Assembly: GCA_035629395.1 (NCBI GenBank)
Contig: DASPHZ010000056.1
Span: 116,461 to 148,460, forward strand
Source of the DNA: Thermoanaerobaculia bacterium
GTDB taxonomy: Bacteria; Acidobacteriota; Thermoanaerobaculia; Gp7-AA8
DNA: 32,000 nucleotides
Direction: 5' to 3'
Positions within the stretch are counted from its first letter, which is position 1; every line of letters starts with the position of its first letter. Position numbers and translations under genes: made by a program. Positions 4,701 through 22,553 of this stretch are shown piece by piece. The notes below the pieces were generated by a model that saw only the letters and a program-made list of their open reading frames with translations, did not search any database and was not told the DNA's origin.

Positions 4701-4808
4701 ATCGAGGGACGCACGAATGCGGAGGCGCTACGCCGCGCCGCGTTGAAGGTGCGCGCGAACCACAAGCATCCGTTCTACTGGGCCCCGTTCGTCGTCATCG
4801 GGCGGTAG
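1734..4808 (+). CDS. TPR-repeat protein with C-terminal CHAT (caspase-like) peptidase domain; N-terminal hydrophobic leader and NTF2-like region
   Basis: About 15 TPR-like 40-aa repeats (for example A..L..LG.....G....A...YE.AL.I). The C-terminus carries the CHAT dyad motifs LHFATHGVLD (His codon 4401-4403) and LSACETARG (Cys codon 4542-4544), and ends HPFYWAPFVVIGR. The ATG at 1734 follows GGTGGA, and the codons upstream of it have low GC3. Confidence 0.92.
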   Translation: MLRAQLLFLALLTVSDPPPLRERAEAFVTAMNAGDVARVTSMWHSQSTTGRHRISRLGLDGVQLSISAVRDDAAILEVRDATQTLVAEYELRFQQENGEWRIWSLLSTSAAQADDPRNATPTLPLVRELLYRAAEAHEEGRNDRAEADYTIAGAYAEQLGHTLFRTTAERGLGNISLGRGDTERAARHFEKSLELARAANDRNSIARSLNALANVDETVGNWANAETRLREAYEIFREMGKKTLAGYMLNSIGNAYAARSDYKEAQRHYEQALQLFEEIGDLRGTSAALNNLGINHRVQGSLRESVALFHRAIEINRTIGTQALSGMATSWSNLGQSLTLQGNYVAALQAFQEALILNEKLGRADTIRATLDKAGDMHRRLGDLEQARTFFERSLVIAEKAEAKPGIASSMQSLANVRLDSGDARGALTLYEKALAIDTETGNRAAVARGLESIGRAQLQLRNREAARKAFERSFTIAEEINDRELMASSLVRRASITEAFEAVTLAERAVAIASELGLPEVEWQAHLGLGRAYRGARRTSEAREEVERAVQIVEELRRGVPGEEMTRQQAFENMIAPYHELVSLLIAQGENAAALEYAERAKARVLLDVLRYGRPDVGNALTPEERQREAALTAQLADVNREYRRALVAGTQNAALSAKLRRARLELDRFVTNLHAAHPQLRIESGEVEPITAAQLRAMKEADAFVEFVVTDDATYRFTIAGGVVQVATIPIPKAKLQSEVLHFRELLADRDLTYAAAGRSLYDRLFGSMNVSGTLCIVPDGPLWELPFQALQPSATEFLIDRHAVFLAPSLTVLREMSAAPRTDAATRLLAFGFPNALAPLPQSETEVRSIAALYGARNSRVYLRSEAREEVVKAEAGAFDVLHFATHGVLDDRNALYSRLVFSPPAAKQEDGLLEAREIMRLQLRARLAVLSACETARGRVGDGEGLIGMSWALFVAGAPASVVSQWKVDSTSTTDLMIEFHRNLRIEGRTNAEALRRAALKVRANHKHPFYWAPFVVIGR

Positions 4809-5634
4809 GAACGCCGGCGTTCCGCCACGAGCGCACCTGTGCGAGCAGGTCGCTTGCGCCCGCGCGCTCGAGCTCGCGCTCCGCTTCGTCGAGTGCGCCG
4901 AGTTGCGCGAGTGCGATGCCGCGTTCGCGCGGCGTCGTCGCGTCGACGTCGTGCGCGGCGACGTGGAACAGCACTTCCGCATCCGCCGCGCCGGGCGCTT
5001 TCACGCGTCCGGAGGACGTGCGCGCCGTCACCTGCCACGTATACGTCTTCCCGCGCGGCAATGCGGTGTCAGGACGCCAGGAGGTCTCTTTGCTCGTGCC
5101 GCTGGCGACGAGTGTTCCCGTTTCATCGGCGACCGCGACGTCGTAGGAGGTCGCACCCGTCACCGCATCCCAGGAGAATTGCGGACGCTGCTCGGTGACG
5201 ACGGTCGCAACCGGCGCACGCAGCGCGAACGAAGCGCCGGCGGATCCGCGCAGCACCGGCGTGGGACGGACGAGCGTGGCGAGGATGGCGGGTCGGGTGA
5301 GGATGACCGCCGGAGCGGGCGTTGCAGGCGCTGCAGGCGCAGGCGCCGCGGGCGCTGCGATCACCGGCTCTTCGGCGCGCCGCGGCAACAGGAACCACGC
5401 CAGCGCCACCGCGATCGCGAGCACCGCCGCCGCGGCCACGAGCCACCGCACCGGAGCGCCGCCCGGAAGCCGCCGCTCCGATGCAGCCAGCGCATCGCGC
5501 ATCGCCGCGAGGTCGTTCGCCTCGCCGCGGCACATGGGACATCGTCCCAGGTGGGCCTCCGCGCGCGCACGCTCGGCGGCGTCCGCACTCCCCTCCGCCC
5601 AGCGTTCCAGTTCTCCGTACGTCAAATGATTCAT
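4795..5634 (-). CDS. anti-sigma factor (zf-HC2 type), single-pass membrane protein with extracytoplasmic domain
   Basis: The N-terminus has the H-x3-C-x2-C motif (HLGRCPMC). There is a TM helix, WLVAAAAVLAIAVALAWFLL, then a Pro/Ala-rich linker, then a beta-rich domain. Its ATG overlaps the stop of the sigma gene (ATGA at 5631-5634). Confidence 0.8.
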   Translation of the reverse strand: MNHLTYGELERWAEGSADAAERARAEAHLGRCPMCRGEANDLAAMRDALAASERRLPGGAPVRWLVAAAAVLAIAVALAWFLLPRRAEEPVIAAPAAPAPAAPATPAPAVILTRPAILATLVRPTPVLRGSAGASFALRAPVATVVTEQRPQFSWDAVTGATSYDVAVADETGTLVASGTSKETSWRPDTALPRGKTYTWQVTARTSSGRVKAPGAADAEVLFHVAAHDVDATTPRERGIALAQLGALDEAERELERAGASDLLAQVRSWRNAGVPTAR

Positions 5635-6656
5635 CGGCGATTTCTCGTGAGGAGGACCAGGCTTGCTTTCCGTGAAGAGTCCAATTTCTCTTCGACGTTC
5701 CGTTGCTCGCGGTTTTTCTCCATTCTCCGCAGCCGCTCGCGCGCAAGGCGCCGCATTTTGATGACTTGGCGGGGCGACGCGTGCAGCAGCTCTCCGATCG
5801 CGGCGTCGCTGAGCGGGAGCTCCTTCCACAGCGCCTCGAATTGCTCCACCGGCATCTCCACGGCCGCTGCGATCTCCGGAAGGGTGGCGGTGCGTGTCAG
5901 CGGAAGCAGGCTCAGACACTCGCGGCCATGCGCGTCGCGCAGATTCAGCAGCAGCGCGGCGCGCTGTTTCGGCGCGAGCTGGCGCACGTCTTCCCACAAT
6001 TGCCGCAGCGAGACGCGCAGCTCGAACGCCGTATCGGCCGGCGTCTCCGACGCGAGCTCGTTCGTCAGCGGCACGTCCGCGCGCTGCATTTCGAGATGAA
6101 TGAGTCGCGCCACGGTCTCGACGAGCGTGTCGAGGAGGAGCGGCGCACCCACGCTGCGCAGGATTGCCGGCACGAGCGTGATGAGCTGCGCACGATTCTC
6201 GGCAGTGGGATCGCTGCGCGCCGGCACACTCACGTTGGCCTCGGCCACCGCCTCGCGCCCTTCCCAGTCGCGCAGTCCGCACACGACCGCGCCGTTCGCA
6301 TTGCGCCACGTCGTCAGCTTCGCGTGATGACCGCAGAGGTACTGCAGTTGATTGCGCAGGCGCGCGCGTGCGGGATAGCGCTCGCGCATGCGTTCGTGAC
6401 AACTGTTGTACGCGCACGTGGCGATGTAGCCGCGCAGATCGCGGATGGGCGGCGCGCCGCTGCCACGCAGATCGCGCAGCCGGCGCAACAGATCGACGAG
6501 CGTATCGGAGAGAAGATCCTCCGCCTCATCGCGCGCGATCGATTCGACGATCCGCCGCACCACCGGCCGCGCCACGTCCTGGAGCAGCCGCGCGAGCTGC
6601 CGGTCCGCCTCCTCTTCCGTAAGCGCCTGGAGATACGCGCGCAGCAGATCGTCCAT
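5631..6656 (-). CDS. ECF-like RNA polymerase sigma factor, unusually long (341 aa)
   Basis: A region-2-like segment (DLLSDTLVDLLRRL ... YIATCAYNSCHERMRERYP) and a region-4 HTH-like segment (LSDAAIGELLHASPRQVIKMRRLARERLRR) are present. They are separated by a long insert. The gene is translationally coupled to the anti-sigma gene. Confidence 0.8.
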   Translation of the reverse strand: MDDLLRAYLQALTEEEADRQLARLLQDVARPVVRRIVESIARDEAEDLLSDTLVDLLRRLRDLRGSGAPPIRDLRGYIATCAYNSCHERMRERYPARARLRNQLQYLCGHHAKLTTWRNANGAVVCGLRDWEGREAVAEANVSVPARSDPTAENRAQLITLVPAILRSVGAPLLLDTLVETVARLIHLEMQRADVPLTNELASETPADTAFELRVSLRQLWEDVRQLAPKQRAALLLNLRDAHGRECLSLLPLTRTATLPEIAAAVEMPVEQFEALWKELPLSDAAIGELLHASPRQVIKMRRLARERLRRMEKNREQRNVEEKLDSSRKASLVLLTRNRR

Positions 6657-7020: not shown

Positions 7021-8958
7021 ATGCAGCAGTTTCGATACGACATCCGCAACGTTGCCATCATCGCCCACGTCGACCACGGGAAGACCACGCTCGTCGACGC
7101 ACTCCTCAAGCAGGCCGGCGCCGTCCGTGCGAACCAGCACATGGACGAGCGGGTCATGGACTCGAACGACCTCGAGAAGGAGCGCGGGATCACGATCCTG
7201 GCCAAAAACACGTCCATTCGCTACCTCGTCGATCAGCCCGACGCCCTCGGGCATCCGGTCCATCACGAGCCCACGCACACCGCCAGCGGCCACGATCTGC
7301 CGGCCGAGTTCATCCATCCGGCCGAGGTGAAGATCAACATCGTCGACACGCCGGGCCACGCCGATTTCGGCGGTGAGGTCGAGCGCGTCCTGTCGATGGT
7401 CGACGGCGTCATCCTCCTCGTCGACGCCGCCGAAGGTCCGATGCCGCAGACGCGTTTCGTCCTGCGCAAAGCCCTCGGGCTCGGCCTCCTGCCGATCGTC
7501 GTGATCAACAAGATCGACCGGCCCGACCAGCGTGCGACGGAAGTCGTCAACGAAGTCTTCGATCTGATGATCGAGCTCGGCGCGTCGGACGAGCAGATCG
7601 ACTTCCCGATCCTCTACGCCATCGGCCGCAAAGGCATCGTGCGGCACGAGCTGACCGACACCACCGAGGATTGCCGTCCGCTGTTCGACGCGATCCTCAA
7701 GCGCATTCCGCCGCCCCCGGGCGTGCAGGATTCGCCGCTGCAGCTCCTCGTCAGCGCCATCGACTACAACGAATACGTCGGCCGCCTCGGCGTCGGCCGC
7801 ATCCAGCGCGGCAAGATCCGCCAGAACACGGACGTCGTCCTCATCCTCCGCGACGGCACGCAGAAGAAAGGACGCGTCACGAAGCTGTGGGCGTTCGAAG
7901 GACTCAAGCGTGCGGAGATCGAAGAAGCGGGAGCGGGTGAGATCGTCTGCGTCGCAGGCTTCGCGGACGTCGAGATCGGCGAGACCTTTGCCGCCGCCGA
8001 CGCGCCGGAGCGCCTCGAGCCGATCGCGATCGACGAGCCGACCGTCTCGATGTACTGGATGGTCAACGACTCGCCGTTCGCCGGCACCGAGGGCAAGTAC
8101 GTCACCTCACGCAACATCAAAGACCGTCTCGACAAAGAGCTGCGCAAAGACGTTGCGCTGCGCGTGCGTGAGACCGGTCAGGCCGACCGCTTCGAAGTGG
8201 CGGGACGCGGCGAGCTGCATCTCTCGATCCTCGCGGAGAACATGCGCCGCGAGGGCTACGAGTTCGCCCTGTCGCGCCCGCAGGTCATCCTCAAACAGGT
8301 CGACGGGCAGACGATGGAGCCGTACGAGGCCCTCGTCGTCGACGTCGAGGAAGCGCACGTCGGCACGATCATGGAGAAGATCCAGCAGCGCCGCGGCGAG
8401 ATGACCGACATGGTCAACCCCGGCACCGGACGCGTGCGCATCGAGTTCAAGATCCCCACCCGCGGCCTGTTCGGCATCCGCACGGAGTTCCTCTCCGAAA
8501 CGCGCGGCACGGGACTGCTGTACCACACGTTCCTCGAGTACGGTCCGTATCGCGGCGAGCTCGCCTCGCGCAATCGCGGTGCGCTCGTGGCGAAGGAAGC
8601 CGGCGACACGACCGCGTACGCGATCGAGCCGCTGCAGGAGCGCTCGACGCTCTTCATCGGCCCGGGCCTCAAGGTCTACGGCGGACAGGTCGTCGGCGAG
8701 AACTCGCGCGACGTCGACATGGTCGTCCAGGTCTGCCGCGCCAAGCACCTCACCAACATGCGCGCGTCGGGCTCGGACATGGCCGTCAAGCTCACTCCCC
8801 CGCGCCTCATGACGCTCGAGCAGTGCCTCGAATGGATCGAGGACGACGAGCTCGTGGAAGTGACGCCGGAATCGATCCGCATCCGCAAGCAGCTCCTCGA
8901 CCATTCGCAGCGCGAAGTCGCGGCGAAGAAGGCGAAGAAGGCGGCCGCGGAAGGCTGA
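7021..8958 (+). CDS. typA: translational GTPase TypA/BipA
   Basis: Near-identical G-domain motifs to BipA: [56 protein letters not shown]. The characteristic C-terminal domain is also present ([12 protein letters not shown]...[18 protein letters not shown]). Confidence 0.97.
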
Positions 8959-9013: not shown

Positions 9014-9277
9014 ATGCACGTGGCGGTGGCGGCACACGTTCGGACGACGGCGGACGGCGACGGAGCGGTGCTGCTCGATCTCGAGCGCGGCGTGTATCTG
9101 TCGCTGAATCGCTCCGGTGCCGCCATCTGGAGCGAGCTGACGGCCGGCGCTGCGCCGGCGGACGTTGCCGCTCGGATCGCGGCGCGCTGCTCGAAACCGG
9201 TGGCCGAGGTCGAGCGCGACGTGCGCTCCTTCGTGGACGAGCTCGCGCGCCGCGGCCTCGTCCGCGTCAGCGGGTGA
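9014..9277 (+). CDS. PqqD-like RiPP recognition element (lasso peptide B1 protein)
   Basis: An 87-aa protein with the PqqD-family pattern (GAVLLDLERGVYLSLNRSGAAIWSEL ... VERDVRSFVDELARRGLV). It sits immediately upstream of the B2 and cyclase genes. Confidence 0.85.
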   Translation: MHVAVAAHVRTTADGDGAVLLDLERGVYLSLNRSGAAIWSELTAGAAPADVAARIAARCSKPVAEVERDVRSFVDELARRGLVRVSG

Positions 9278-9281
9278 TCGC

Positions 9282-9656
9282 ATGCGCACACTCCTGCTCC
9301 TCCTGGCGTGGCTCGCGTTTCTCGTGACCTCGCTCGCGGTGCGATTCGCCGGATTCACGCGTGTGCATCGGCGCGTGCGCCAATGGCGTGTTTCGCGATC
9401 GCGTCGACGGCCGTCGATCGAGATGCTGCGCGATGCGATCGAAGCGGCCGCACGATGGACGCTGCTTCCCGTGCAATGTCTGGAGCGCGCGGCCGTGACG
9501 ACGTGCCTCTTCCGCACGTTCGGCTACGACGCGGCTTTCGTCATCGGCGTGCGGCGTACGCCTTTCTATGCACACGCGTGGACGGAGCTCGACGGTGCGG
9601 TACTGACCGACCCCGCCGAGCGCGTGCGCGAGCTCGCCGTCGTGGAGCGTTGCTGA
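9282..9656 (+). CDS. lasso peptide B2 leader peptidase (transglutaminase-like Cys protease)
   Basis: The N-terminus has a TM-like segment. Cys/His/Asp triad context typical of lasso B2 proteins is present: QCLERAAVTTCLFRTFGYDAAFVIGV ... FYAHAWTELDGAVLTD. The ATG at 9282 lies 5 nt after the B1 stop. Confidence 0.85.
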   Translation: MRTLLLLLAWLAFLVTSLAVRFAGFTRVHRRVRQWRVSRSRRRPSIEMLRDAIEAAARWTLLPVQCLERAAVTTCLFRTFGYDAAFVIGVRRTPFYAHAWTELDGAVLTDPAERVRELAVVERC

Positions 9657-9657
9657 C

Positions 9658-11484
9658 GTGAGCGTCGTCGCGGGCGTGCTTGCGTTCGACGGCGCTCCCG
9701 TGGCCGAGGAACAGCACGCGCTGCAGGCGTATGCGCGGCGCTACGGCGCGGTGTCGATCGTGAGCGGCAGCGGCGTCACGCTGTTTGCGAACGACACGTT
9801 CGTCACGCGTGACGACGCGGGGCGCGTGCGTACCGCTGTCGCGATCGACGGCCGCGTCGACGTTCTCCAGGCTTACGAACGCAATCCGCACGACTTTGCG
9901 GGCCGGCTCATCGGCGACTTTGCCTTCGCGTTATGGGATGAACCGCAGCGCACGCTCTTCCTCGCGCGCGACGCCTTCGGCTCGCGTCCGCTGTACTGGC
10001 ACGGCGATGCGAAGCGCCTCGTGTGGGCGTCGCACCTCGCTCCCCTCCTCGGACTCGCGCGCGAGCCGCTGTCGATCGACCGCGATTCCCTCGCGGCCTT
10101 CGTCATCCGCGGCGCGATGCGCGACCGCACGCCCGTCGCCGAGATCCGCTCCGTCCGCGCGGCAGAACTGTGCGTCGTACGCGACGGCGTGATGCAGCGC
10201 TCGCGGCACTGGTCGCTCGATCCACACGCCACCGTCGACGTCCGCTCGGATGCAGAGGCGGAGGAGAAGCTGCGTGCGCTATTGAGCGAGGCGGTTCGCT
10301 CGATGACGGGCGACGGACCGGCGAGTGTGCTGCTCAGCGGAGGCGTCGACTCCTCCTCGATCGTTGCGGTCGCCGACGCGGTGCGGCCGGAACCGCCGGT
10401 GCAGACGATCTCCTGGGTTTTCGAAGCGTCGCCCACGTCGGACGAGCGGGAGTTCGTCCGCGCGGTCGAGACACATCGTGGCCGCAGGGGCGTGCACATC
10501 GGCGAGCGCGAACAGGCGCTGCTCGAATTCGATCCCGAAGATCCCGGCACCGAGATCCCGACGTCGTACGTCTGCTTCGCGCGACGCTGCGAGGCCACGC
10601 GTGCCGCCATGCGCGCGGCGGGGTCGCGCGTGCTGCTGACCGGCATCGGCGGCGATGACGTGCTGTACGGCGACTTTGGGTTCATCGGCTCGATTGCGGA
10701 TGCGCTCGCGCGCGGGCGCGTGCTGCGCGCGCTGTCGGAAGTGCGCAAGTGGGCGCCGCATGTCGGCGTGTCGCATCTGCAGTTGCTGTGGCGCTCGGGC
10801 ATCCGGCCGCTGAGCGGTGCGGCGCCGGTGTCGCTGGTCGCGCCGTGGTGGTCGCGGGAGTTTGTCGAACGGATGCACGACGGCCGAGGATGGCCGTCTC
10901 GACCGCTGCCGAGCCGCCGGTTCGACCTGCAATGCTTCGAGGGACTCGTCGGCTCGATGGCGCGGCGCTGGTATTTCGAGCACGACGAGATCGTGACGCG
11001 CGAGCCGTTTCTCTACCGGCCGCTCGTCGAGTACTGCTTCGCGTTGCCGTTCGAGCAGAAGCTGCGTCCCGGCGCGACGCGCTCGATCCTCCGCCGCGCA
11101 TTACGCGATCTCCTGCCGCCGGCCATCCTGACACGCCTCTCCAAGTGCGGGCCGGACGAAGCGCTGTTGCGTGCCGCGCAAAGACGCGCGGGTGCGCTGC
11201 GCGCGCTGTTCGCCGAGGCGCGAGTGGTGCGTCACGGCTTCGCCGACGGCACGGCCATCGACGCCGCGCTGACGAAGATCGCGCACGGCTTCGACGCCGG
11301 TGTCGCCTTTCTCCTCCGCCTCATCGCCCTCGAGCTCTGGTTGCGCTGGTTCGAGCGCCGCCCTCTCTCATCCACCGCCGCAGTCACTGAAGTCAACGGA
11401 GGAATTGCATGCACGAGCACGAAATCCAGAATGACGAGTACGAAGTCCCGACCATCCTCGAGCTCGGCGACGCCGCCGACCTGA
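9658..11484 (+). CDS. asparagine-synthetase-like lasso peptide cyclase (C protein)
   Basis: The PP-loop motif LLSGGVDSSSIV is present, the overall layout is AsnB-like, and the N-terminal Cys nucleophile is absent (starts MSVVAG). The GTG start is 2 nt after the B2 stop. The last ~40 codons are S/T/P-rich and overlap the precursor gene out of frame. Confidence 0.9.
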   Translation: MSVVAGVLAFDGAPVAEEQHALQAYARRYGAVSIVSGSGVTLFANDTFVTRDDAGRVRTAVAIDGRVDVLQAYERNPHDFAGRLIGDFAFALWDEPQRTLFLARDAFGSRPLYWHGDAKRLVWASHLAPLLGLAREPLSIDRDSLAAFVIRGAMRDRTPVAEIRSVRAAELCVVRDGVMQRSRHWSLDPHATVDVRSDAEAEEKLRALLSEAVRSMTGDGPASVLLSGGVDSSSIVAVADAVRPEPPVQTISWVFEASPTSDEREFVRAVETHRGRRGVHIGEREQALLEFDPEDPGTEIPTSYVCFARRCEATRAAMRAAGSRVLLTGIGGDDVLYGDFGFIGSIADALARGRVLRALSEVRKWAPHVGVSHLQLLWRSGIRPLSGAAPVSLVAPWWSREFVERMHDGRGWPSRPLPSRRFDLQCFEGLVGSMARRWYFEHDEIVTREPFLYRPLVEYCFALPFEQKLRPGATRSILRRALRDLLPPAILTRLSKCGPDEALLRAAQRRAGALRALFAEARVVRHGFADGTAIDAALTKIAHGFDAGVAFLLRLIALELWLRWFERRPLSSTAAVTEVNGGIACTSTKSRMTSTKSRPSSSSATPPT

Positions 11485-11543
11485 CCCTCGGACGTCCGAT
11501 GGGCGGCCAGGCCGACGCGGCCGACGAGTTCCGCATCCTGTAG
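11409..11543 (+). CDS. lasso peptide precursor (44 aa), not in the supplied ORF track
   Basis: Hand translation: MHEHEIQNDEYEVPTILELGDAADLTL|GRPMGGQADAADEFRIL*. GGAGG at 11398-11402 lies 6 nt before the ATG. The leader matches the lasso motif Y-x2-P-x-(L/I)-x3-G-x5-T-x. The core starts with Gly and has Asp at position 9. Confidence 0.8.
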   Translation: MHEHEIQNDEYEVPTILELGDAADLTLGRPMGGQADAADEFRIL

Positions 11544-11566
11544 CACGCACGCGCGGGCGGCGCGGC

Positions 11567-11604
11567 GAGGCCGCCGGACGGCGAGTCCGGCGGCCTCGTT
11601 TTTT
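11567..11604 (+). terminator. rho-independent terminator after the lasso precursor
   Basis: A perfect 13-bp stem, GAGGCCGCCGGAC / GTCCGGCGGCCTC, has a 5-nt loop and is followed by GTTTTTT. Confidence 0.8.
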
Positions 11605-11620
11605 GCAGGGAGCGTCGGGC

Positions 11621-12298
11621 ATGGAACAAGCCGCACGCTGTCCGCTTCGCGTTCTCGTCTTCGCCGCCTCCCTGCGCCACGATTCGCTGAACGCGAAGCT
11701 CGCGGCGCTCGTCGAAGGGATCGTGACGCGGCACGGGGCGGAGGTCGTGCACGGGTCGATGCGCGACTTCGACTGCCCGTCGTACGACGGCGACGTCGAG
11801 ACAGGCGCCGGCATCCCCGCGGGCGCGCAGAAATTGCGCGACGCGCTCCATGGCTGCGACGCGTTCGTCATCGCCTCGCCGGAGTACAACGCGTCGATGC
11901 CGGGCATCCTCAAGAACGTCGTCGACTGGACGTCGCGCTTCCGTCCGCAGCCGTTCAACGGCAAGCAGGGGTTCCTCCTGTCCGCCTCTCCGTCGATGGC
12001 TGGCGGCAACCGCGGCCTCTGGTCGCTGCGCATCCCCCTCGAGCACCTCGGCGCCCGCGTCTATCCCGACATGTTCTCCCTCCCGCAGGCGCACGAGGCC
12101 TTCCGCGAAGATGGCCACCTCACCCGCGAATCGACGGAGAAGCGCCTCGAAACGATCGTCTCCTGCTTCCTCGACATCACCGAGGCGAGCAAACACTACG
12201 GCCGGATGAAGAAACAGTGGTTCGAGTTCCTCGGCGAGCACCCGAACGAGGCCACGGACCGCGTCGAGGCGACGGAGGTCACGGCTTCGCCGGCTTGA
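11621..12298 (+). CDS. NAD(P)H-dependent FMN reductase family protein
   Basis: Flavodoxin-like FMN_red pattern: RVLVFAASLRHDSLNAKLA ... DAFVIASPEYNASMPGILKNVVDWTS ... GKQGFLLSASPSMAGG. I prefer the ATG at 11621; the TTG at 11603 lies inside the terminator. Confidence 0.85.
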   Translation: MEQAARCPLRVLVFAASLRHDSLNAKLAALVEGIVTRHGAEVVHGSMRDFDCPSYDGDVETGAGIPAGAQKLRDALHGCDAFVIASPEYNASMPGILKNVVDWTSRFRPQPFNGKQGFLLSASPSMAGGNRGLWSLRIPLEHLGARVYPDMFSLPQAHEAFREDGHLTRESTEKRLETIVSCFLDITEASKHYGRMKKQWFEFLGEHPNEATDRVEATEVTASPA

Positions 12299-14837
12299 AC
12301 TCCGGTCGAATGTCGGCCGCTTCCACGAGGATGTAGCCGGCCAGCGCGAGGATTTGCGGGATGGCACGGACCATTGCGCGATCGACGTCTTTCCACTGCG
12401 TCGGGAGCTTCGACCACGGCACCAGATACGGACTGTGTTTGGGACTGTCCGTCGCCTCATCTCCTTTGACGTACCCAGCGGCCTTCTTGCGATTCATCCA
12501 GATGTCGTGCTCCATCTTCGCGAGCTGCTCGTACTCCGCGTCGGTCAGTTTCCGCTCTTCCGCACTTCCAGCGGGAGCGATCGTGTACCCGGCATTTTCG
12601 AGCTTCCGCGGAATCCAGCGGACGGTTCCGCGATTCGCTTCTTTCGCGTGCTCGGGGAGCTTCTCGTACTCGACGAGGAGGTTGTGACGCCTCTTCCCGT
12701 CGTTGCGAACTTCCGCGTAATGCCAACCCTGTTTCGTCTTCGTCTCGCAAAACACGTCATGAGCGTATTTCGCCTGTTTTTCGAGCACCTCGATGTCGTC
12801 TGTGAACCGCGGCACGTGCGTCTCGCTGACAAAAGGCAGTTCGACGTGCAGAGCCATTTGCGGCTCCGGCGGCAGACTGGAGCTCTCGAAACGTTTCCGT
12901 CCAGCCAGCATGCTCATGGCGATGACGGACTCGAGGGATCGTGCCCCGTGCAGATACGTTTTGGTGGTCAGGAATGCCCGCAGGACGCCGGGTGCAATCC
13001 GCAGAGTTTCGTCTTTTCGGAAAAGATCTTTGCAATGCCGCAGGAGCATCGAGCGCAGCAGAATGGCGCGGCGAATGAGGTAATGCGGATCGCCGTTCGG
13101 ATTGCGCCTGTTCGGCCCGATGACGTTCAGGAATCCTTTGAGCCGGCTGACGAAGTCCGGGACCTTCAGCGCTTTCCGCTCCTCGGTGGAACCGGGCTGC
13201 ATGAAATCTTCGATGGAAGCCGCGGTTCCTCCTGCAAAGACGAAGATGCTCGTGCCGATCGGATGGGTGACCTGGTCTTCCTGAAACTCACCGTCCTGCA
13301 TGGGACCGATGAAGTAGCGAAGCCACCCAAGCGGTTTCCCTTCGTGCGTCGTATCGAACTCGTCCCAGAACACGAGTGGGATTTCTCCCTTCAGTGACAC
13401 GTCACGCACCTGATGAAACGCACCGTGCAGATCTTCATAGCGGGCGAATTGCGTGAGGTTGAACGTCAACCGCTTGATTTTTTTCTGTCCGCCGATCGAC
13501 TTTGCGATCTCTACGACCCCAAACGACTTGCCTGATCCGGGCGAGCCGAACACCGCAATCGACAGCGGCTTGCTCGGGGTGCGATCGACGTACTCCGACA
13601 ACAGTGCTTTGACACTGCGGTACGCCTCGATCTCCTCTCGGTCGACCGTAAACAGGTCGCCGATGCGCAACTGCGGAACCTCGGCCAGAGTCTGGTCGGG
13701 ACCGTAAATCGCGACTCGCGCCGCGAGCTCGTAGAGCGGATCGTCGGATTTCCCGTCCGGAGCACTCCTCGCCGCCGTGCTGAGACGGTCTTCGAGGATG
13801 CTCCAGCTCTTGCGGCTCGGATCGTGGACGACGGCAGTGGAAACGCTCTCCTTCCTTTTCAACACGGCCTGCGTAATCGCGGGAAGTGGCATCTCCGGAT
13901 TCGCTTTGTCTTTTCCGAAGCCGCTTTCGAACAGCGCACGCATTCCCGCGATCGCGCGCGGCAGAGCGTCCGCCAGTTGCGGCCAGGTGGGATGGAGCAT
14001 CACTTCGTGAGTGACCGCCGCGGCGGCGATGGTCGCGTAGCCGATCATGTGTCCCGACGGCTTCTTCGGCGGCGCCCACTCACGCTCCATCAGTGAGGGA
14101 TCAAACACCAGGCGCGGTGGCTCATCGTCGCGTGGCAGCACCATCGCACCCGCGGGGCCGAACGAAACGATGAGGTACTTACAGCGCCGCAATGCGTGCA
14201 GCGACGTGCTTTTTCTGATCTCCGTGACGACGTCCTGCGCCGTCCGCTCCCACGACACCCGCCGAATCAACTGAATCTCTTTCCGGCGCAGATCGTCAGC
14301 CGTCATCACGACGATCAATCGATCCGCGTGCTTTGCCGCGAGGTGCTGCCACAGTTTTTCGTGAAATGCCGGTACCGACGTCTTGAGGATCACCCACGGC
14401 GTGTGTTTGCCGTTGCGAATCGCGGCAGGCCAGAACTTTTCCTTCATCTCGAAGCCGAGGTCCGAGTCGAGCAGCGCCACGACCGCGGCCTCGGGATCGT
14501 CGTGAGAAATGTCGTGCGGAGGCGTGCCCTTGCTGCGTTCGACGCCGAGAAACTCGTGGACTCGCAGGACGTCATCCGTCGCGGACGTGACGACGGTATA
14601 CGTCTGATGAACAGAGGCATCACTGGCAGGACGAACGATCCCGCGAACGATTGCGTCAGGAGCGAGCTGTCGGATCAGATCTTCGAGCAGCCATGCGCCG
14701 CCGTACTGCCGAACGCGATGCACGTCTCCTGCGTCCGCCCATGACCGCGTCGCCACGATCTTGTCGCGATCGACCGAGAGGTTCCAGTCGATCATCACGT
14801 CCCCGGCCACGACCACGGTGTTTGCTGAGCTCATCAC
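12279..14837 (-). CDS. three-part protein: ribokinase/pfkB-like N-terminal domain, AAA+ ATPase, two C-terminal RyR domains
   Basis: - N-terminus: VVVAGDVMIDW, YGGAWLL, LIVSFGPAGAMV resemble pfkB-fold strands (weak, by eye).
- AAA+: Walker A FGSPGSGKS (13524-13547), Walker B LVFWDEFD, sensor-1-like FVFAGGT.
- C-terminus: two RyR-like repeats (AKYAHDVFCETKTKQGWHY...LVEYEKLPEHAKEANR and AKMEHDIWMNRKKAAGYV...PYLVPWSKLPTQWKDVDR), about 12324-12791.
- Start is either GTG 14837 or ATG 14834. Confidence 0.85.
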   Translation of the reverse strand: MMSSANTVVVAGDVMIDWNLSVDRDKIVATRSWADAGDVHRVRQYGGAWLLEDLIRQLAPDAIVRGIVRPASDASVHQTYTVVTSATDDVLRVHEFLGVERSKGTPPHDISHDDPEAAVVALLDSDLGFEMKEKFWPAAIRNGKHTPWVILKTSVPAFHEKLWQHLAAKHADRLIVVMTADDLRRKEIQLIRRVSWERTAQDVVTEIRKSTSLHALRRCKYLIVSFGPAGAMVLPRDDEPPRLVFDPSLMEREWAPPKKPSGHMIGYATIAAAAVTHEVMLHPTWPQLADALPRAIAGMRALFESGFGKDKANPEMPLPAITQAVLKRKESVSTAVVHDPSRKSWSILEDRLSTAARSAPDGKSDDPLYELAARVAIYGPDQTLAEVPQLRIGDLFTVDREEIEAYRSVKALLSEYVDRTPSKPLSIAVFGSPGSGKSFGVVEIAKSIGGQKKIKRLTFNLTQFARYEDLHGAFHQVRDVSLKGEIPLVFWDEFDTTHEGKPLGWLRYFIGPMQDGEFQEDQVTHPIGTSIFVFAGGTAASIEDFMQPGSTEERKALKVPDFVSRLKGFLNVIGPNRRNPNGDPHYLIRRAILLRSMLLRHCKDLFRKDETLRIAPGVLRAFLTTKTYLHGARSLESVIAMSMLAGRKRFESSSLPPEPQMALHVELPFVSETHVPRFTDDIEVLEKQAKYAHDVFCETKTKQGWHYAEVRNDGKRRHNLLVEYEKLPEHAKEANRGTVRWIPRKLENAGYTIAPAGSAEERKLTDAEYEQLAKMEHDIWMNRKKAAGYVKGDEATDSPKHSPYLVPWSKLPTQWKDVDRAMVRAIPQILALAGYILVEAADIRPEFKPAKP

Positions 14838-14882
14838 AAGTGGAGTGACGGGGACGTTCTTTTTCCTACCCGCGCCGCCGCG

Positions 14883-17447
14883 TCACGGCACCAGCTTCAC
14901 TCCCAATTCCCGCAGAATCGGATCGATCGGCAGGACGATGGCCGTCACTTTGTCCGAGCCCCAGAGGATGCCGACGAGGTCGTTGTTCTCGTTGAAAACG
15001 GGGGCGCCGGAGTCGCCGCCTTCGGCCTGGAAATCGGTGAGGATCTCGTCGTCGCGAACCTCCACCACATGGCCGGTGGTGATGCCGGAGCCGCGGGCGA
15101 TCATGCGCAAGGTGTCGCCGGAACGCACGGTCGCCGTCCGGCCGGAGAGGCGGCCGAAGCGCCAGAGTGAGGAGTCGATCGTGACGCCGGGGCTCAGCGC
15201 GACGAGCGCGCCGGAGCGATAGTCGTCCTTCCCCGCGCGGGCGAACGTCCCGATGACCGACCGCGCCGTGCCGCCATCGCCGGGACCGGGCTGGATGACG
15301 CGGTCGGATTTGCCGCTCACGATGAACGGCAGCGTCAGCGCGTAACGCGTCCTGCCGTCGGTCACCGCGCAACAGAGGCTGCCGGTCGCGCCGCCCGCGG
15401 AGCCGATGCTCGCGCCGAGGCGCAGGGGACGGGTCATCGAACGGAGATTCCAGCGCGTGGCGTCGAGCAGGCGCTCCGACTGCGAGGTGATGACCCGGTT
15501 GAGCACCGGCGTCATCGCGCGCTGCACGGCCTGCGTGGCCTCCACCTTCTGCTCGACGAGCTCCTTTTCGGCCGCATCCCTCGCTTCGAGAGCTGCCTGC
15601 AACTCGCTGTTGCGATGTTCGACGAGCGCCAGCGCCTGCAGCGTTTTTTCCTTCTCGGCTTTCAGCTCGGCGGCGTACTTTTGCATCGCGTCGTAATCCG
15701 CTTTGTTGACCTTGCCCAGCAGTTCCTCCGCACGCGCGGCCGCGATCTTCGCTTCGATCTCTGCTTTGTCGGCTTCCCGCTCGGCTTTGGCCTTGTCACG
15801 CTCGCTGCGCAGCTTCATCCATTGCGTGTACATCACCGCCAGCACGAGCACCGCGACGAGCGCCAGCGCGAAATGCTTCACGCGACGCTGCGAATTCACC
15901 AGCTTCCGGCTCTCCCGTACGAGCGCCTGCAGCGACTCGCTCGCGCTCAGATCACGCGCCTCTTCGCTGCTCAGCCACGCCTCCGCCTCCTCCACCTGCT
16001 CGCGATCGAGATACCCGCCGCGGCGATCGAAGCGCAGCCATTCATCGGCGAGCGCTTCCAGCCGGCGCAGCTCGACGAGCGCGCCGCGTTTGGTCTCCAG
16101 CCAGCCGACGAGCAGCGGCCAGTTGCGGATCAGCGCTTCATGCGAAACCTCGACGGTGTCCTCGTCGCCGCTCTTCCCTTTCGTACGGCGGATCAGCTTC
16201 GATTCCTCGAGCTTCCCCAAAACCTCGGCGATGCGTTGCGGATCGTCGCCGATCGATCGGACCAGCATACCGACGCGTACGCGATTGCTCGTCAGCTCCG
16301 CGCCCGCCGCCGCGCGGACCATGCGCAGCAGCACGCGGCGCATCGTGTCGCGCGATTGCGGCGTGAAACCGCGATAGACCTCGTCCGCCGAACGCTCGAG
16401 CGCCGCCAGTCCGCCGCCGAGCTTCTTGTACGCGGCGAGCGTGAGGCGATTGCGATCGCGATCCTTCCACAATCGCCACAGCGTGAACTGCAGGAGCGGC
16501 AGCGCACTCGCCTCCCCTTTCACGTCCCGGATCAGCGCGTCGGTGAGCCCCGGCTCGAGCTTCAGCTTGATATTGGCCGCCGGTTTTTCGATCGCTTCGC
16601 GCAGCTCGTCTTCGTCGAGCGCGGTCGCGGCGATGCGGCCGGCGCTGTAGACCTTCTGCAGTTCCGGAATGGTGGTGAGGCGATATTCGTAATCACTGCG
16701 GATCGTAATGACGACGCGGCAGAGCGCACCACTCGCGAGCGCCACGAGACGCCCCGCGAACGAAGAGCGCACCTGATGGTCGTCACAGAGCGTGAAGAGC
16801 TCCTCGAACTGATCGACGATCACGACCAGCGTGCGCCCGGCTCCCGCCTGCAGCAGCGCGTCGATGCCGGCCAGACTCTGCAGCGGATCGCTGCCCGGCG
16901 TGACCGGATCCGCGTAGAGCCACTGCTCGCTTCCTTCGATCGCACCGTCTTTGAGCGCGGGAATGATGCCGGCCAGCACGATCGACGACTTGCCGCTGCC
17001 GGACGATCCCGTCACGCCGACGAAATGCGACTCCCGCAGCCTTGCGAGGGCCGCGTCGACCGCGCGTTTGCGGCCGAAAAACTTCTGGCTGTCGCTTTCG
17101 CGGAATGCCGTCAGTCCGACGTACGGACAGAGATGCTCCTCGAGCTTTTCCGCGAACGAGTTGTCGAACTCCGCGAGTGTGGAATCGTTCACGCCGAGCG
17201 ACGCGCGCACGAGCGTGGTCGACCAGTAGTCGATGAGACCCTGCGCCGCATCGCGCTGCTCGTCCGCGTCGAGGTACACACCGGTCAGGCGCGCGCGGCG
17301 GATGAACAGCCGCGCCTCGTCCGCGACGTCCGTGACCGACATGGCCTTGCGCTGCCGCGTGAGCAGCGAGGTGTGCGTCGCGCGCAGCTCCACGATCGAC
17401 GGGAACGCTTCCTTCACGGTTTCCGCAGTGACAGGGGTCTCGCTCAT
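14883..17447 (-). CDS. STAND-type P-loop NTPase (nSTAND-like), then TM helix, coiled coil and C-terminal trypsin-like domain
   Basis: - NTPase: CPYVGLTAFRESDSQKFFGRKR precedes Walker A GSSGSGKS (16986-17009); Walker B is LVVIVDQFEELF.
- Winged-helix-like segments: LPLLQFTLWRLW and VSHEALIRNWPLLVGWL.
- TM helix HFALALVAVLVLAVMYTQWM (15816-15875), then a K/E/A-rich coiled coil.
- Trypsin-like domain with GDSGAP (Ser codon 15009-15011).
- The ATG at 17447 overlaps the TIR gene stop (ATGA). Confidence 0.88.
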   Translation of the reverse strand: MSETPVTAETVKEAFPSIVELRATHTSLLTRQRKAMSVTDVADEARLFIRRARLTGVYLDADEQRDAAQGLIDYWSTTLVRASLGVNDSTLAEFDNSFAEKLEEHLCPYVGLTAFRESDSQKFFGRKRAVDAALARLRESHFVGVTGSSGSGKSSIVLAGIIPALKDGAIEGSEQWLYADPVTPGSDPLQSLAGIDALLQAGAGRTLVVIVDQFEELFTLCDDHQVRSSFAGRLVALASGALCRVVITIRSDYEYRLTTIPELQKVYSAGRIAATALDEDELREAIEKPAANIKLKLEPGLTDALIRDVKGEASALPLLQFTLWRLWKDRDRNRLTLAAYKKLGGGLAALERSADEVYRGFTPQSRDTMRRVLLRMVRAAAGAELTSNRVRVGMLVRSIGDDPQRIAEVLGKLEESKLIRRTKGKSGDEDTVEVSHEALIRNWPLLVGWLETKRGALVELRRLEALADEWLRFDRRGGYLDREQVEEAEAWLSSEEARDLSASESLQALVRESRKLVNSQRRVKHFALALVAVLVLAVMYTQWMKLRSERDKAKAEREADKAEIEAKIAAARAEELLGKVNKADYDAMQKYAAELKAEKEKTLQALALVEHRNSELQAALEARDAAEKELVEQKVEATQAVQRAMTPVLNRVITSQSERLLDATRWNLRSMTRPLRLGASIGSAGGATGSLCCAVTDGRTRYALTLPFIVSGKSDRVIQPGPGDGGTARSVIGTFARAGKDDYRSGALVALSPGVTIDSSLWRFGRLSGRTATVRSGDTLRMIARGSGITTGHVVEVRDDEILTDFQAEGGDSGAPVFNENNDLVGILWGSDKVTAIVLPIDPILRELGVKLVP

Positions 17448-18868
17448 TTCAGTGCCTCGACGACCTCGGCCAGCGGCCTGCCGATCGTGCCGAGCTCCTC
17501 GCATTGCTCTTTCAGGTTCGTGTCGACGGTGAAGAACCGCGTGTTGGCTTTCTTGCGGAAGCGCACGAAGAAGCGGTTCATCTGCGCGGGATCGCCCGCG
17601 GCAATGGCTTCGTCGACGCTGCGCGCGTCGTCGCGGAGCGGCTGCACCCAGTCGCCCGGCGACGCCCACAGCACGGTCACCATCTTCAGGAGATCGCTCC
17701 AACTGATCTCCAGCTCGCTCGCGTCTTTCGCCGAGATGTTCGTCTCGATGCGCCGCATCTCCACCTCGACGTCCTGCCACAGGCGGTGACCGCGGACGAG
17801 AATGCCGAGGTTTTCTTCGAGGGCTTCCATGACATCGCGGGCGTGCTCGAGGGAGAGCACTTTCTCCGCGGCCATGCCGAGCTCACGGCCGGTGCGGCAG
17901 ACGAACGAAAGCGCGTCGATGACCGCTTCCAGCTCGAGATTGGCCGCCGCTTCGCCGAGACGGGCGTCGATGCGCGCGGGCTCGTTCGCAAGCACGCGAT
18001 TGAGGAGCCGCGCCGCGCCGCGCACCCCTTTTTCGTCGCGCGCCTTCACCGCCACCGCCAGCGCCTTCTGCGCCTCGGCCAGCGTGTCGATCCACGCCAT
18101 GCGCATGTTCTCGAACATCGGCCTTGCGTCGATCTCGCGCAGCGTGCCGATGGCCCGTTGCAGGTCGTTGGAGTAGTAGTCGATGGCGTCGACGGCAGTG
18201 TCGTCGTCCGCGATGCGCGGTGCGTCGCGGAGGATCGCCTCGTAGACGTGCAGTTGCACGTGGTGCAACTGGTCGTGCACGGACTTGAACGCATCGAGGC
18301 GGTGGATGAGGCCGACGATCGTGTTGAAGCGGAGCTCGTATTCGAGGAGTTTCTCGCGCACGTGTCCCGCGGAGATGAGCTCGGACATCGTCCGGAGCCC
18401 CTCGCCCACGGGTCTGGTGCGGACGACGTCGGGCGCGCCGAGGGGACGGGCGAGGCTGCGGACGAGCTTCGCCATCTGATCGCTGATGGTCGCGTCGTTG
18501 ACGCAATCGACGTACGTGCGCAGCGACAGCCACGGCGGGGCGTTGCATTTTTCGCGGAGGATCGGGATCAGCCGTCCGCGTGCGCCGGTGGGATCCTGCT
18601 GCACGCTGAGCATCCCTTCGAACTGCGACCACTCGCTGTCGACCCAGTTCTGCGTGAGCACGGCCACGGTGCGGCGCGACTGGAGGACGCCGTCCGTCAT
18701 GTTCGTGATCGAGCTGTTGCCGGCGGCGAAACCGTCCTCATCGACGAGCACGCGCAGGCCGCCGTCGCGCAGCGCCTTCACGAGCACGCCCGAAACCCAC
18801 GCCTTGTCTTTGTGGCTGTAGCTCACGAAGACGTCATGGGGGTACTCCGCCGGTGTCGTGGCGCTCAT
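17444..18868 (-). CDS. TIR-domain protein with ~330-aa all-helical C-terminal domain
   Basis: TIR motifs are HDVFVSYSHKDKAW, TVAVLTQNW and DSEWSQFE (putative catalytic Glu codon 18617-18619). I prefer the ATG at 18868 because the codons upstream of it (to GTG 18919 / ATG 18910) have low GC3. Confidence 0.88.
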   Translation of the reverse strand: MSATTPAEYPHDVFVSYSHKDKAWVSGVLVKALRDGGLRVLVDEDGFAAGNSSITNMTDGVLQSRRTVAVLTQNWVDSEWSQFEGMLSVQQDPTGARGRLIPILREKCNAPPWLSLRTYVDCVNDATISDQMAKLVRSLARPLGAPDVVRTRPVGEGLRTMSELISAGHVREKLLEYELRFNTIVGLIHRLDAFKSVHDQLHHVQLHVYEAILRDAPRIADDDTAVDAIDYYSNDLQRAIGTLREIDARPMFENMRMAWIDTLAEAQKALAVAVKARDEKGVRGAARLLNRVLANEPARIDARLGEAAANLELEAVIDALSFVCRTGRELGMAAEKVLSLEHARDVMEALEENLGILVRGHRLWQDVEVEMRRIETNISAKDASELEISWSDLLKMVTVLWASPGDWVQPLRDDARSVDEAIAAGDPAQMNRFFVRFRKKANTRFFTVDTNLKEQCEELGTIGRPLAEVVEALK

Positions 18869-18965
18869 GGATCCCTGGATGGACGGATTTCCATGAGTAT
18901 AGCCCACCATCCTCGGCACTCCACGTGCACGCCCCGTTTGTCACACCTTTACAGGAGGCTGAACG

Positions 18966-22472: not shown

Positions 22473-22510
22473 TGGACGGAGGAGATTGTACGTGGTTCGC
22501 GCTGCGCGCG

Positions 22511-22553
22511 CGGTTGTCGGTTGTCGGTTTTCCACCCGGCCGCATACCCGTTG
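22511..22553 (+). repeat. three tandem heptamers (CGGTTGT CGGTTGT CGGTTTT) running into copy A of the motif CGGTTTTCC-N12-ACCCGTTG
   Basis: Read directly. Copy A spans 22525-22553. Confidence 0.5.

What the first reader, a model, noticed from the sequence alone, without database searches (positions are those of the whole stretch)
9014..11604. Compact lasso-peptide biosynthetic cluster (B1-B2-C-A) directly downstream of typA
Four tightly packed genes are present: a PqqD-like RRE, a transglutaminase-like peptidase, an Asn-synthetase-like cyclase with SGGVDSS, and a short precursor. The gaps are 4 nt and 1 nt, followed by an overlap. The cluster ends with a strong rho-independent terminator at 11567-11604. 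This is the complete minimal split-B lasso gene set. The precursor is last in the order, rather than first as in the best-known clusters. No ABC exporter, isopeptidase or tailoring gene is adjacent. If the host is an acidobacterium, few lasso peptides from that phylum have been characterised. The product would probably be new chemistry from a known RiPP class.
Basis: partly seen in the sequence, partly recalled or inferred. Interest (0 to 1): 0.75.

Follow-up and report, generated by a model that had tools for sequence, protein, structure and literature searches.

The report
Minimal lasso-peptide gene cluster, acidobacterial MAG
This is a real, intact four-gene cluster for a lasso peptide (a small knotted ribosomal peptide) in an uncultured acidobacterium; the predicted peptide sequence is new, but the machinery and gene order are ordinary for this type of cluster.

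Summary
Window 9014-11604 holds four co-directional genes:
- a PqqD-type leader-binding protein (B1);
- a transglutaminase-like leader peptidase (B2);
- an asparagine-synthetase-like cyclase (C) with the SGGVDSS ATP-binding loop;
- a 44-aa precursor (A) that overlaps the last 76 nt of C.
A strong hairpin plus U6 terminator follows.

The precursor is real. It passes NCBI's lasso-leader model. It has its own GGAGG ribosome-binding site and a normal coding-frame GC pattern. It is conserved at the same position in five independent related contigs (and, just after C, in a sixth), with an invariant Y-17, P-14, I-12, G-8, T-2 leader, G1 and D9.

The predicted product is a 17-residue, cysteine-free (class II) lasso peptide, GRPMGGQADAADEFRIL, with a G1-D9 ring and a mass of 1784.863 Da. 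It matches any of 55 characterised lasso peptides at no more than 5 of 17 positions.

The host is a Thermoanaerobaculia (Acidobacteriota) MAG.

- B1-B2-C-A order is common among related clusters in Acidobacteriota and Cyanobacteria, and has been published for soil acidobacterial clusters.
- The typA adjacency is seen only in the closest relative whose upstream flank was recovered, and is lost in more distant ones.
- NCBI already annotates B2 as a lasso protein.

Verdict: a new member of a known kind, of modest interest.

The parts
9014..9277 (+). B1: PqqD-family RiPP recognition element (87 aa) that binds the precursor's leader
   Evidence: PF05402 E 1.4e-16, 61 bits against a cutoff of 23.4. 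NF033530 lasso_PqqD E 9e-17, which is below its curated cutoff. Matches the solved lasso RREs TbiB1 (5v1u, E 6e-9) and TfuB1 (6jx3, E 8e-6).
9282..9656 (+). B2: transglutaminase-like cysteine leader peptidase (124 aa)
   Evidence: NF033537 lasso_biosyn_B2 scores 74.6 bits against a cutoff of 33. PF13471 E 4e-22. Cys66 and His98 (AHAW motif) are invariant across 19 B2 homologues. NCBI already names it 'lasso peptide biosynthesis B2 protein', HYH07978.1.
9658..11484 (+). C: asparagine-synthetase-like, ATP-dependent lasso cyclase (608 aa). The conserved domain ends near residue 570; residues 584-608 are a by-product of the overlap with A.
   Evidence: PF00733 E 1e-35. The best NCBIfam hit is NF033535, lasso isopeptide-forming cyclase, E 1e-61, but at 209 bits it is below the cutoff of 525. 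The N-terminus is MSVVAG, with no Cys2 glutaminase nucleophile (consensus MSxxAG). It is always preceded by B1-B2 in relatives.
10336..10356 (+). PP-loop ATP-binding motif SGGVDSS (C residues 227-233)
   Evidence: Read directly from the sequence. S227, G228, G229, D231, S232 and S233 are invariant across 23 homologues.
11398..11402 (+). GGAGG ribosome-binding site of the precursor gene, lying inside the C coding region, 6 nt before the ATG
   Evidence: Read from the sequence. GGAGGA precedes the precursor ATG in the window, L003, L004, L005, L006 and L007.
11409..11543 (+). A: lasso precursor, 44 aa. Leader 11409-11489 (MHEHEIQNDEYEVPTILELGDAADLTL). Core 11490-11540 (GRPMGGQADAADEFRIL). Stop 11541-11543.
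   Evidence: NF033521 lasso_leader_L3 scores 24.6 bits against a cutoff of 19. Y-17, E-16, P-14, I-12, E-10, L-9, G-8, L-3, T-2, L-1, G1 and D9 are invariant in 7 homologues. GC by codon position is 0.76/0.33/0.89, like typA, whereas the C frame in the overlap reads 0.20/0.88/0.76. Against L005, 12 of 20 nucleotide differences fall at third positions of the A frame.
11565..11604 (+). Rho-independent terminator: 15-bp GC-rich stem, 5-nt loop, U6
   Evidence: The fold of 11540-11620 is -48.5 kcal/mol, z = -2.87. The next gene, an FMN reductase, starts at 11621.

Best explanation
This is a self-contained split-B lasso-peptide biosynthetic operon (B1-B2-C-A) in a Thermoanaerobaculia (Acidobacteriota) MAG.

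Inferred mechanism, by analogy with characterised split-B systems:
1. The 44-aa precursor is translated from its own strong Shine-Dalgarno site, which lies inside the 3' end of C.
2. B1, the PqqD-type recognition element, binds the leader through the YxxPx(I/L) motif (Y-17, P-14, I-12).
3. B1 presents the precursor to B2, a Cys66/His98 peptidase. B2 cuts after L-1, with T-2 as the specificity determinant.
4. C uses ATP, bound by the SGGVDSS PP-loop, to adenylate the side chain of Asp9. C then closes an isopeptide bond to the new Gly1 amine around the pre-threaded tail.

Predicted product: a cysteine-free (class II) 17-mer, GRPMGGQADAADEFRIL. It has a 9-residue G1-D9 ring and the 8-residue segment AADEFRIL beyond it. 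Phe14 and Arg15 are the likely plug residues. Monoisotopic mass is 1784.863 Da ([M+2H]2+ 893.439).

Shown here: gene identities, motifs, conservation, coding status of A, and the terminator.
Inferred: enzyme order, cleavage site, ring residue, threading, and whether the cluster is expressed.

Biological role is unknown. No exporter or immunity gene is linked.
For: - Family hits for all four genes.
- B1 matches the solved lasso RREs TbiB1 and TfuB1.
- The B2 Cys and His are invariant.
- The C PP-loop is invariant and Cys2 is absent.
- Five independent metagenomic contigs, with C 49-87% identical, carry B1-B2-C plus a small ORF overlapping the 3' end of C. A sixth, short contig (L088, C not compared) carries B2-C with the precursor starting 5 nt after C.
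- The flanks differ in L005, L006 and L007, so the four genes travel as a unit.
- Precursors show the RiPP signature. The leader positions -17 to -1 are 13-16 of 17 identical, while the core falls to 3-5 of 17. G1 and D9 stay invariant.
- Codon-position GC and the third-position substitution bias show that selection acts on the A frame.
- D9 is the only acidic residue at positions 7-9, the only ring sizes known. Eight residues after the ring satisfies the minimum of 3 loop plus 2 tail residues (PMC12214591).
- The YxxPxL and T-2 rules come from the literature (PMC6784204; PMC10368454).
Against: - No expression or chemistry data exist.
- The cyclase (209 bits against a cutoff of 525) and B1 (61 against 70) score below NCBIfam's curated lasso cutoffs, so both are divergent.
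- No promoter-like site was found. There is also no terminator between typA and B1, so transcription control is unknown.
- Two published acidobacterial clusters with the same B1-B2-C-A core (one with a kinase gene inserted, one with ABC transporter genes) and a third whose precursor was not assigned gave no detectable product in E. coli (PMC9064862).
- The third catalytic residue of B2 is not conserved across the wider alignment.
Confidence: 0.88

Rival explanations
1. The cluster is genuine lasso machinery, but it is silent, or it yields an unthreaded branched-cyclic peptide or a heat-labile lasso. In that case no stable lasso natural product exists in vivo.
For: - No recognisable promoter.
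- The tail beyond the ring is short, at 8 residues, with only F14 and R15 as bulky candidates.
- Heterologous expression of similar acidobacterial clusters failed (PMC9064862).
Against: - All four ORFs are intact.
- The precursor is under purifying selection in several lineages, which argues for a functional product.
- The ring and tail dimensions are within those of known stable lasso peptides (PMC12214591).
Confidence: 0.2
2. The small ORF is a chance open frame in GC-rich DNA, and the true substrate of B1/B2/C is encoded elsewhere.
For: The window is 66.6% GC and full of spurious ORFs. Gene callers did not call the ORF on the ENA and Logan contigs.
Against: - It hits the lasso leader model above cutoff.
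- It has a conserved GGAGG site.
- The leader, G1 and D9 are invariant in 7 loci, including two (L007 with a 17-nt overlap, L088 with none) that do not share the 73-79-nt overlap.
- Its coding-type GC3 pattern sits in the A frame, not the C frame.
- A motif scan found no other lasso-like precursor in the window.
Confidence: 0.03
3. The three enzymes are not a lasso system. Instead they are an ordinary asparagine synthetase paralogue sitting next to unrelated PqqD and transglutaminase genes.
For: NCBI names C only 'asparagine synthase-related protein'. The closest solved structures to C are AsnB-type amidotransferases.
Against: - There is no Cys2 glutaminase nucleophile.
- The top NCBIfam hit is the lasso cyclase model.
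- Linkage to B1-B2-A is tight, with gaps of 4 and 1 nt and then an overlap, and is conserved across divergent contigs.
Confidence: 0.02

Closest known systems
Split-B lasso systems with solved RRE-leader complexes: TbiB1 (Thermobaculum terrenum, PDB 5v1u/5v1v) and TfuB1 (fusilassin/fuscanodin, Thermobifida fusca, PDB 6jx3)
   Same: Separate PqqD-type B1 and transglutaminase-like B2. The leader carries the YxxPx(L/I) motif and Thr-2. The cyclase is Asn-synthetase-like. B1 aligns to TbiB1 over 69 residues at about 39% identity, E 6e-9.
   Different: By my recollection, those clusters are ordered A-C-B1-B2. Here the order is B1-B2-C-A, with A overlapping C. The host phylum is different and the core is unrelated.
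Soil-metagenome acidobacterial lasso clusters BGC 44.1 and BGC 482.1 (PMC9064862)
   Same: Acidobacterial origin. The gene order is B1-B2-C-A, with the precursor last and about 140-150 bp long. No product has been characterised.
   Different: BGC 44.1 also has ABC transporter genes (D1/D2). BGC 482.1 has a kinase and two precursors. The window's cluster has neither. Those precursors reportedly have Leu or Ser at -2, whereas this one has the canonical Thr. I did not compare the sequences directly.
Characterised lasso peptides with G1-D9 rings: capistruin (GTPGFQTPDARVISRFGFN); also LP2006 (GRPNWGFENDWSCVRVC, ring size not checked here)
   Same: Gly1 start; capistruin has Asp at position 9; the overall size is similar at 17-19 aa. 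These two are the best positional matches among the 55 characterised lasso peptides in Table 1 of PMC12427821.
   Different: Only 5 of 17 positions are identical. LP2006 is class IV, with a tail disulfide. Capistruin comes from a fused-B ABCD cluster with an exporter (my recollection). No functional inference can be made.
Albusnodin family (NF033525 precursor, NF033561 cyclase)
   Same: The cyclase aligns end to end with the albusnodin/ikarugamycin-type model, residues 90-566 against model positions 83-559 of 561. The precursor gives a weak hit.
   Different: Both hits are well below cutoff (117 against 300 bits, and 21 against 30). No acetyltransferase is present. Albusnodin's leader lacks YxxPxL (PMC6784204), whereas this one has it. 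The cluster is not a member of this family.

Membership tests
Lasso peptide biosynthetic gene cluster (RiPP class) | Asn-synthetase-like ATP-dependent cyclase with a PP-loop (SGGxDS) and no glutaminase nucleophile | tested here: met
   PF00733 E 1e-35. SGGVDSS at residues 227-233 is invariant in 23 homologues. The N-terminus is MSVVAG, without Cys2. The best NCBIfam hit is the lasso cyclase model, E 1e-61, though below its curated cutoff.
Lasso peptide biosynthetic gene cluster (RiPP class) | Transglutaminase-like cysteine leader peptidase (B or B2) with catalytic Cys and His | tested here: met
   NF033537 scores 74.6 bits against a cutoff of 33. Cys66 and His98 are invariant in 19 sequences. 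The third triad residue is not resolved. Asp110 (His+12) is conserved only among the acidobacterial relatives.
Lasso peptide biosynthetic gene cluster (RiPP class) | PqqD-like RiPP recognition element (B1, or the N-terminal domain of B) | tested here: met
   PF05402 scores 61 bits against 23.4. PDB matches to TbiB1 (E 6e-9) and TfuB1 (E 8e-6).
Lasso peptide biosynthetic gene cluster (RiPP class) | Short precursor with a leader carrying Thr at -2 (and YxxPxL in split-B systems), a core starting with Gly/Ala/Ser/Cys, Asp/Glu at position 7-9, and at least 5 residues after the ring | tested here: met
   The leader reads ...YEVPTILELGDAADLTL | GRPMGGQAD-AADEFRIL. NF033521 scores 24.6 bits against 19. 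The invariant positions are listed. The rules come from PMC6784204 and PMC12214591.
Lasso peptide biosynthetic gene cluster (RiPP class) | The product is a macrolactam with its tail threaded through the ring | not testable with these tools
   This needs expression, MS/MS, protease and heat challenge, and NMR or ion mobility.
Class II lasso peptides (no disulfide) | Core without cysteine pairs | tested here: met
   The core GRPMGGQADAADEFRIL has no Cys. The relatives L006 and L007 have Cys7 and Cys17, so they would not be class II.
Albusnodin-type (acetylated) lasso peptides | Precursor and cyclase above the NF033525 and NF033561 cutoffs, plus a linked acetyltransferase | tested here: not met
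   Scores are 21.1 against 30 bits and 116.7 against 300 bits. No acetyltransferase is present in the window.
Phosphorylated (paeninodin-type) lasso peptides | HPr-kinase-like gene in the cluster and a C-terminal Ser on the core | tested here: not met
   No kinase is adjacent. The core ends in Leu. The L003 variant ends in Ser, but it too lacks a kinase.
Antimicrobial ABCD-type lasso clusters (microcin J25-like) | Linked ABC exporter or immunity gene (D) | tested here: not met
   No ABC transporter was found in the 32-kb window, or next to the module in L003-L007 or L088.

The most novel reading that the evidence does not exclude
The product would be the first isolated lasso peptide from Acidobacteriota, founding a new 'GxPMGGxxD' ring family with a bioactivity or cellular role not seen before. 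It may act inside the cell, since there is no exporter. The same biosynthetic clade also contains Cys7/Cys17 cores (L006, L007), which would extend the very rare ring-to-tail disulfide class III. That would show class switching within one enzyme lineage.
Probability: 0.25. Interest if true: 0.45.

Novelty: new member of a known kind. Interest (0 to 1): 0.3.

Why it matters
Lasso peptides are useful scaffolds as antibiotics, enzyme inhibitors and receptor antagonists. In the literature I could search, I found no acidobacterial lasso peptide that has been isolated. This cluster is a compact 2.5-kb, four-gene target with a precisely defined precursor and a precise expected mass, so it is easy to synthesise and test.

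It also gives a clean example of a precursor gene hidden inside the 3' end of the cyclase gene. Gene callers miss such a gene: it was not called on the ENA and Logan contigs, and no NCBI entry for it was found. Mining pipelines should therefore scan all frames across the end of C. Beyond that, it confirms known biology rather than changing it.

Tried and rejected
- **typA link.** The idea that typA is functionally tied to the cluster is rejected. The upstream gene is typA only in L004 (99% identical). It is not typA in L005, L006 or L007.
- **FMN reductase as a tailoring enzyme.** Rejected. It lies beyond the terminator, and it is adjacent only in near-identical relatives.
- **A function for the Ser/Thr/Lys-rich C-terminal tail of C.** Rejected. 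Its codon-position GC is aberrant. L007 overlaps A by only 17 nt, and L088 has a 567-aa cyclase with no overlap.
- **Precursor-only searches.** These gave almost nothing. The word-indexed search found only the sequence itself. Full phmmer over 1.8 billion proteins found 3 hits, of which one (P0123) was useful.
- **Degenerate-pattern scan of metagenome contigs.** It found one locus, L089, which has the same leader motif but an A-then-fused-B1B2 layout.
- **PDB searches.** Searches with B2, as a single sequence and as a profile, found nothing. The cyclase profile hit only AsnB-type or beta-lactam-synthetase-type enzymes, so no structure-based check of the B2 triad was possible.
- **Promoter.** A sigma-70 promoter scan found none. 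There is no hairpin between typA and B1.
- **Literature gaps.** The RODEO paper (PMC5391289) and the LassoPred supplements were not held.
- **RNA genes.** Rfam and tRNA scans of the window were empty.
Full report
**1. What is in the sequence**

- B1: 9014-9277, ATG start, 87 aa.
- B2: 9282-9656, ATG start, 124 aa.
- C: 9658-11484, GTG start, 608 aa.
- A: 11409-11543, ATG start, 44 aa.

The spacings are 4 nt, then 1 nt, then a 76-nt overlap. typA ends at 8958, 55 nt before the first gene; it matches TIGR01394 at E 2e-274.

After the last gene, an RNA fold of 11540-11620 gives a 15-bp GC-rich stem (11565-11579 paired with 11585-11599), a 5-nt loop and a U6 run ending at 11604. The energy is -48.5 kcal/mol, z = -2.9 against shuffles. 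The consensus terminator scan did not list it. The next gene, an FMN reductase, starts at 11621.

**2. Identity of the four genes**

- **B1.** It matches Pfam PqqD at 61 bits against a gathering score of 23.4. Its best NCBIfam hit is a lasso-specific PqqD chaperone model, E 9e-17, below that model's strict cutoff. It also matches two crystallised lasso leader-binding proteins, TbiB1 (5v1u, E 6e-9) and TfuB1 (6jx3, E 8e-6).
- **B2.** It passes NCBI's equivalog-domain model for lasso B2, at 74.6 bits against 33. NCBI already names it as such, under HYH07978.1. In an alignment of 19 B2 proteins from related loci, Cys66 and His98 (in an AHAW motif) are invariant. The third triad residue is not clear: Asp110 is conserved only among the acidobacterial relatives.
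- **C.** It has the Asn_synthase and GATase_7 domains. Its best NCBIfam hit is the lasso isopeptide-forming cyclase, E 1e-61, but at 209 bits it is below the cutoff of 525. The PP-loop SGGVDSS (residues 227-233) is invariant across 23 homologues. The N-terminus is MSVVAG, so the Cys2 glutaminase nucleophile of true asparagine synthetases is absent.
- **A.** It passes the lasso leader model NF033521, at 24.6 bits against 19.

**3. Is the 44-aa ORF real?**

The window is 66.6% GC and full of chance ORFs, so this needed its own test. Four lines of evidence agree.

(a) A GGAGG site lies 6 nt before the ATG. It is conserved upstream of the equivalent ORF in every close relative.

(b) GC by codon position in the A frame is 0.76/0.33/0.89. 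That is the same pattern as typA (0.69/0.39/0.89). The C frame over the overlap reads 0.20/0.88/0.76, which is not a coding pattern.

(c) Between the window and L005, whose cyclase is about 61-66% identical, 12 of the 20 nucleotide differences in the last 35 codons fall at A-frame third positions.

(d) Relatives keep the ORF.
- Contigs L003-L007 carry cyclases 49-87% identical to the window's. All have a small ORF at the same place.
- So does L088, found through the precursor itself. There the cyclase is 567 aa and the precursor starts 5 nt after it, with no overlap.
- In L007 the overlap is only 17 nt.
- The Ser/Thr/Lys-rich tail of the window's cyclase lies beyond the conserved ...ELWLRWFERRP end. 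It is therefore a read-through shadow of the leader sequence, not a functional extension.

**4. The precursor and predicted product**

Seven homologous precursors were aligned. The invariant positions are Y-17, E-16, P-14, I-12, E-10, L-9, G-8, L-3, T-2, L-1, G1 and D9.
- This is the YxxPx(L/I) leader motif with a penultimate Thr, described for split-B lasso systems (PMC6784204; PMC10368454).
- The leader positions -17 to -1 stay 13-16 of 17 identical while the core drops to 3-5 of 17. A conserved leader with a variable core is the usual RiPP pattern.
- Asp9 is the only acidic residue at positions 7-9, the only ring sizes known. The eight residues after it satisfy the empirical minimum of 3 loop and 2 tail residues (PMC12214591).

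The predicted product is GRPMGGQADAADEFRIL with a G1-D9 isopeptide ring.
- It has no cysteine, so it is class II.
- Its monoisotopic mass is 1784.863 Da; the linear form is 1802.873 Da.
- Phe14 and Arg15 are the only bulky candidates for plug residues. That assignment is inference.
- Compared position by position with the 55 characterised lasso peptides tabulated in PMC12427821, the best matches are 5 of 17, to LP2006 and capistruin. The sequence is new.

**5. Host and context**

The cyclase is 100% identical to HYH07979.1, from a Thermoanaerobaculia MAG on a 179-kb contig. That class belongs to Acidobacteriota.

The rest of the window has no ABC transporter, isopeptidase, kinase, acetyltransferase or PIMT-type methyltransferase. 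The flanks of the module differ in L005, L006 and L007.
- typA is upstream only in the near-identical L004, not in L005.
- The FMN reductase downstream is likewise shared only by close relatives, and it lies beyond the terminator.

So the four genes form a self-contained unit, and the typA neighbourhood is incidental. No promoter-like site was found, and no hairpin separates typA from B1. Read-through from typA is therefore possible but unproven.

**6. How unusual is the gene order?**

It is not unusual. A profile scan of one genome per species returned 80 loci with related cyclases.
- About 30 of them have B1-B2 immediately upstream of C.
- A leader-motif scan places the precursor just downstream of C in Blastocatellia, Pyrinomonadaceae, Vicinamibacterales and other Acidobacteriota, and in several cyanobacteria such as Nostoc. 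These are L014, L016, L020, L029, L053, L054, L067 and L076.
- Mesorhizobium and sphingomonad loci have it upstream of B1 instead.

The order B1-B2-C-A has also been published for soil-metagenome acidobacterial clusters. Expression of those in E. coli gave no detectable peptide (PMC9064862).

Metagenome surveys routinely report lasso clusters in Acidobacteriota. I found no paper in the held library reporting an isolated acidobacterial lasso peptide, and none that mentions Thermoanaerobaculia together with lasso peptides.

**7. Mechanism, and what is shown versus inferred**

Shown here: the gene families, the catalytic and ATP motifs, the leader motif, the conserved G1 and D9, the coding status of A, and the terminator.

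Inferred from established lasso biochemistry:
1. B1 binds the leader.
2. B2 cleaves between L-1 and G1.
3. C adenylates Asp9 and closes the ring around the tail.

Not testable here: threading, stability, expression and bioactivity.

The strong Shine-Dalgarno site on A, against weak sites on the enzyme genes, suggests the precursor is made in excess. That too is inference.

**8. Verdict**

The cluster is a standard minimal split-B lasso system from an under-explored phylum, encoding a new core sequence. It is a new member of a known kind.

Its practical value is as a small, well-defined expression target. It is also a reminder that precursor genes overlapping the cyclase gene go unannotated. 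It does not challenge current understanding, so I score interest at about 0.3.

Noticed in passing
window 12279-18910 (- strand): Three consecutive genes. The first is an 852-aa RyR-domain protein. The second is an 854-aa nSTAND1 NTPase. The third is a 488-aa TIR-domain protein, with PADLOC hits to PDC-S66 (1e-13), bSEFIR (5e-10) and ThsB-like models. Together they look like a TIR-STAND (NLR-like) conflict or defence module. The same three genes lie near the lasso cluster in L004, there with the FMN reductase gene between the RyR and nSTAND1 genes.
   Followed up: partly
L006 7782-7922 and L007 7808-7954: Sister clusters encode the cores GRPWFDCIDFSGQTRPCQ and GKRFFDCLDDFGMTRACP, with Cys7 in the ring and Cys17 in the tail. 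These would be the rare ring-to-tail disulfide class III (BI-32169 type). They share a G-x-P-W/F-aromatic-D-x-x-D pattern with propeptin, actinokineosin and BI-32169, at 6 identical positions.
   Followed up: partly
window 11409-11484 (and the equivalent region in L003-L006): The last 25 codons of the cyclase are dual-coded with the precursor leader. The resulting cyclase tail (…TSTKSRMTSTKSRPSSSSATPPT) has a non-coding GC pattern and is absent in L088. The ENA and Logan gene calls skip the precursor, and no NCBI entry for it was found.
   Followed up: yes
L010, L011, L013 (Pyrinomonadaceae MAGs): These loci carry two cyclase paralogues flanking B1-B2, in the order C-B1-B2-C. L014 (Blastocatellia) has two tandem precursor genes after C, with Cys-rich cores such as GSALTNYDCCTCGHKG....
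   Followed up: no
L089 3495-4374: A metagenome locus has a near-identical leader motif (YEAPEILELGDAAELT). Here the precursor comes first and is followed by a single fused PqqD-transglutaminase (B1-B2) ORF of 274 aa. The same leader type is therefore used with a different gene architecture.
   Followed up: partly
window 7021-8958 vs L004 2-277: The typA C-terminus is 99% identical between the window and L004, while the adjacent lasso enzymes are only 80-87% identical. The precursor is 95% identical. The biosynthetic genes therefore diverge faster than the housekeeping neighbour, while the precursor is held nearly constant.
   Followed up: partly
window 1734-4808 (+), 19866-22535 (-), 5631-6656 (-): Three other genes stood out. 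One is a 1024-aa TPR-CHAT protein. One is an 889-aa Ser/Thr kinase with Tricorn and PD40 repeats. One is a 341-aa protein with only weak ECF sigma-70 similarity (TIGR02937, 34.6 bits, below cutoff), divergently oriented upstream of typA.
   Followed up: no
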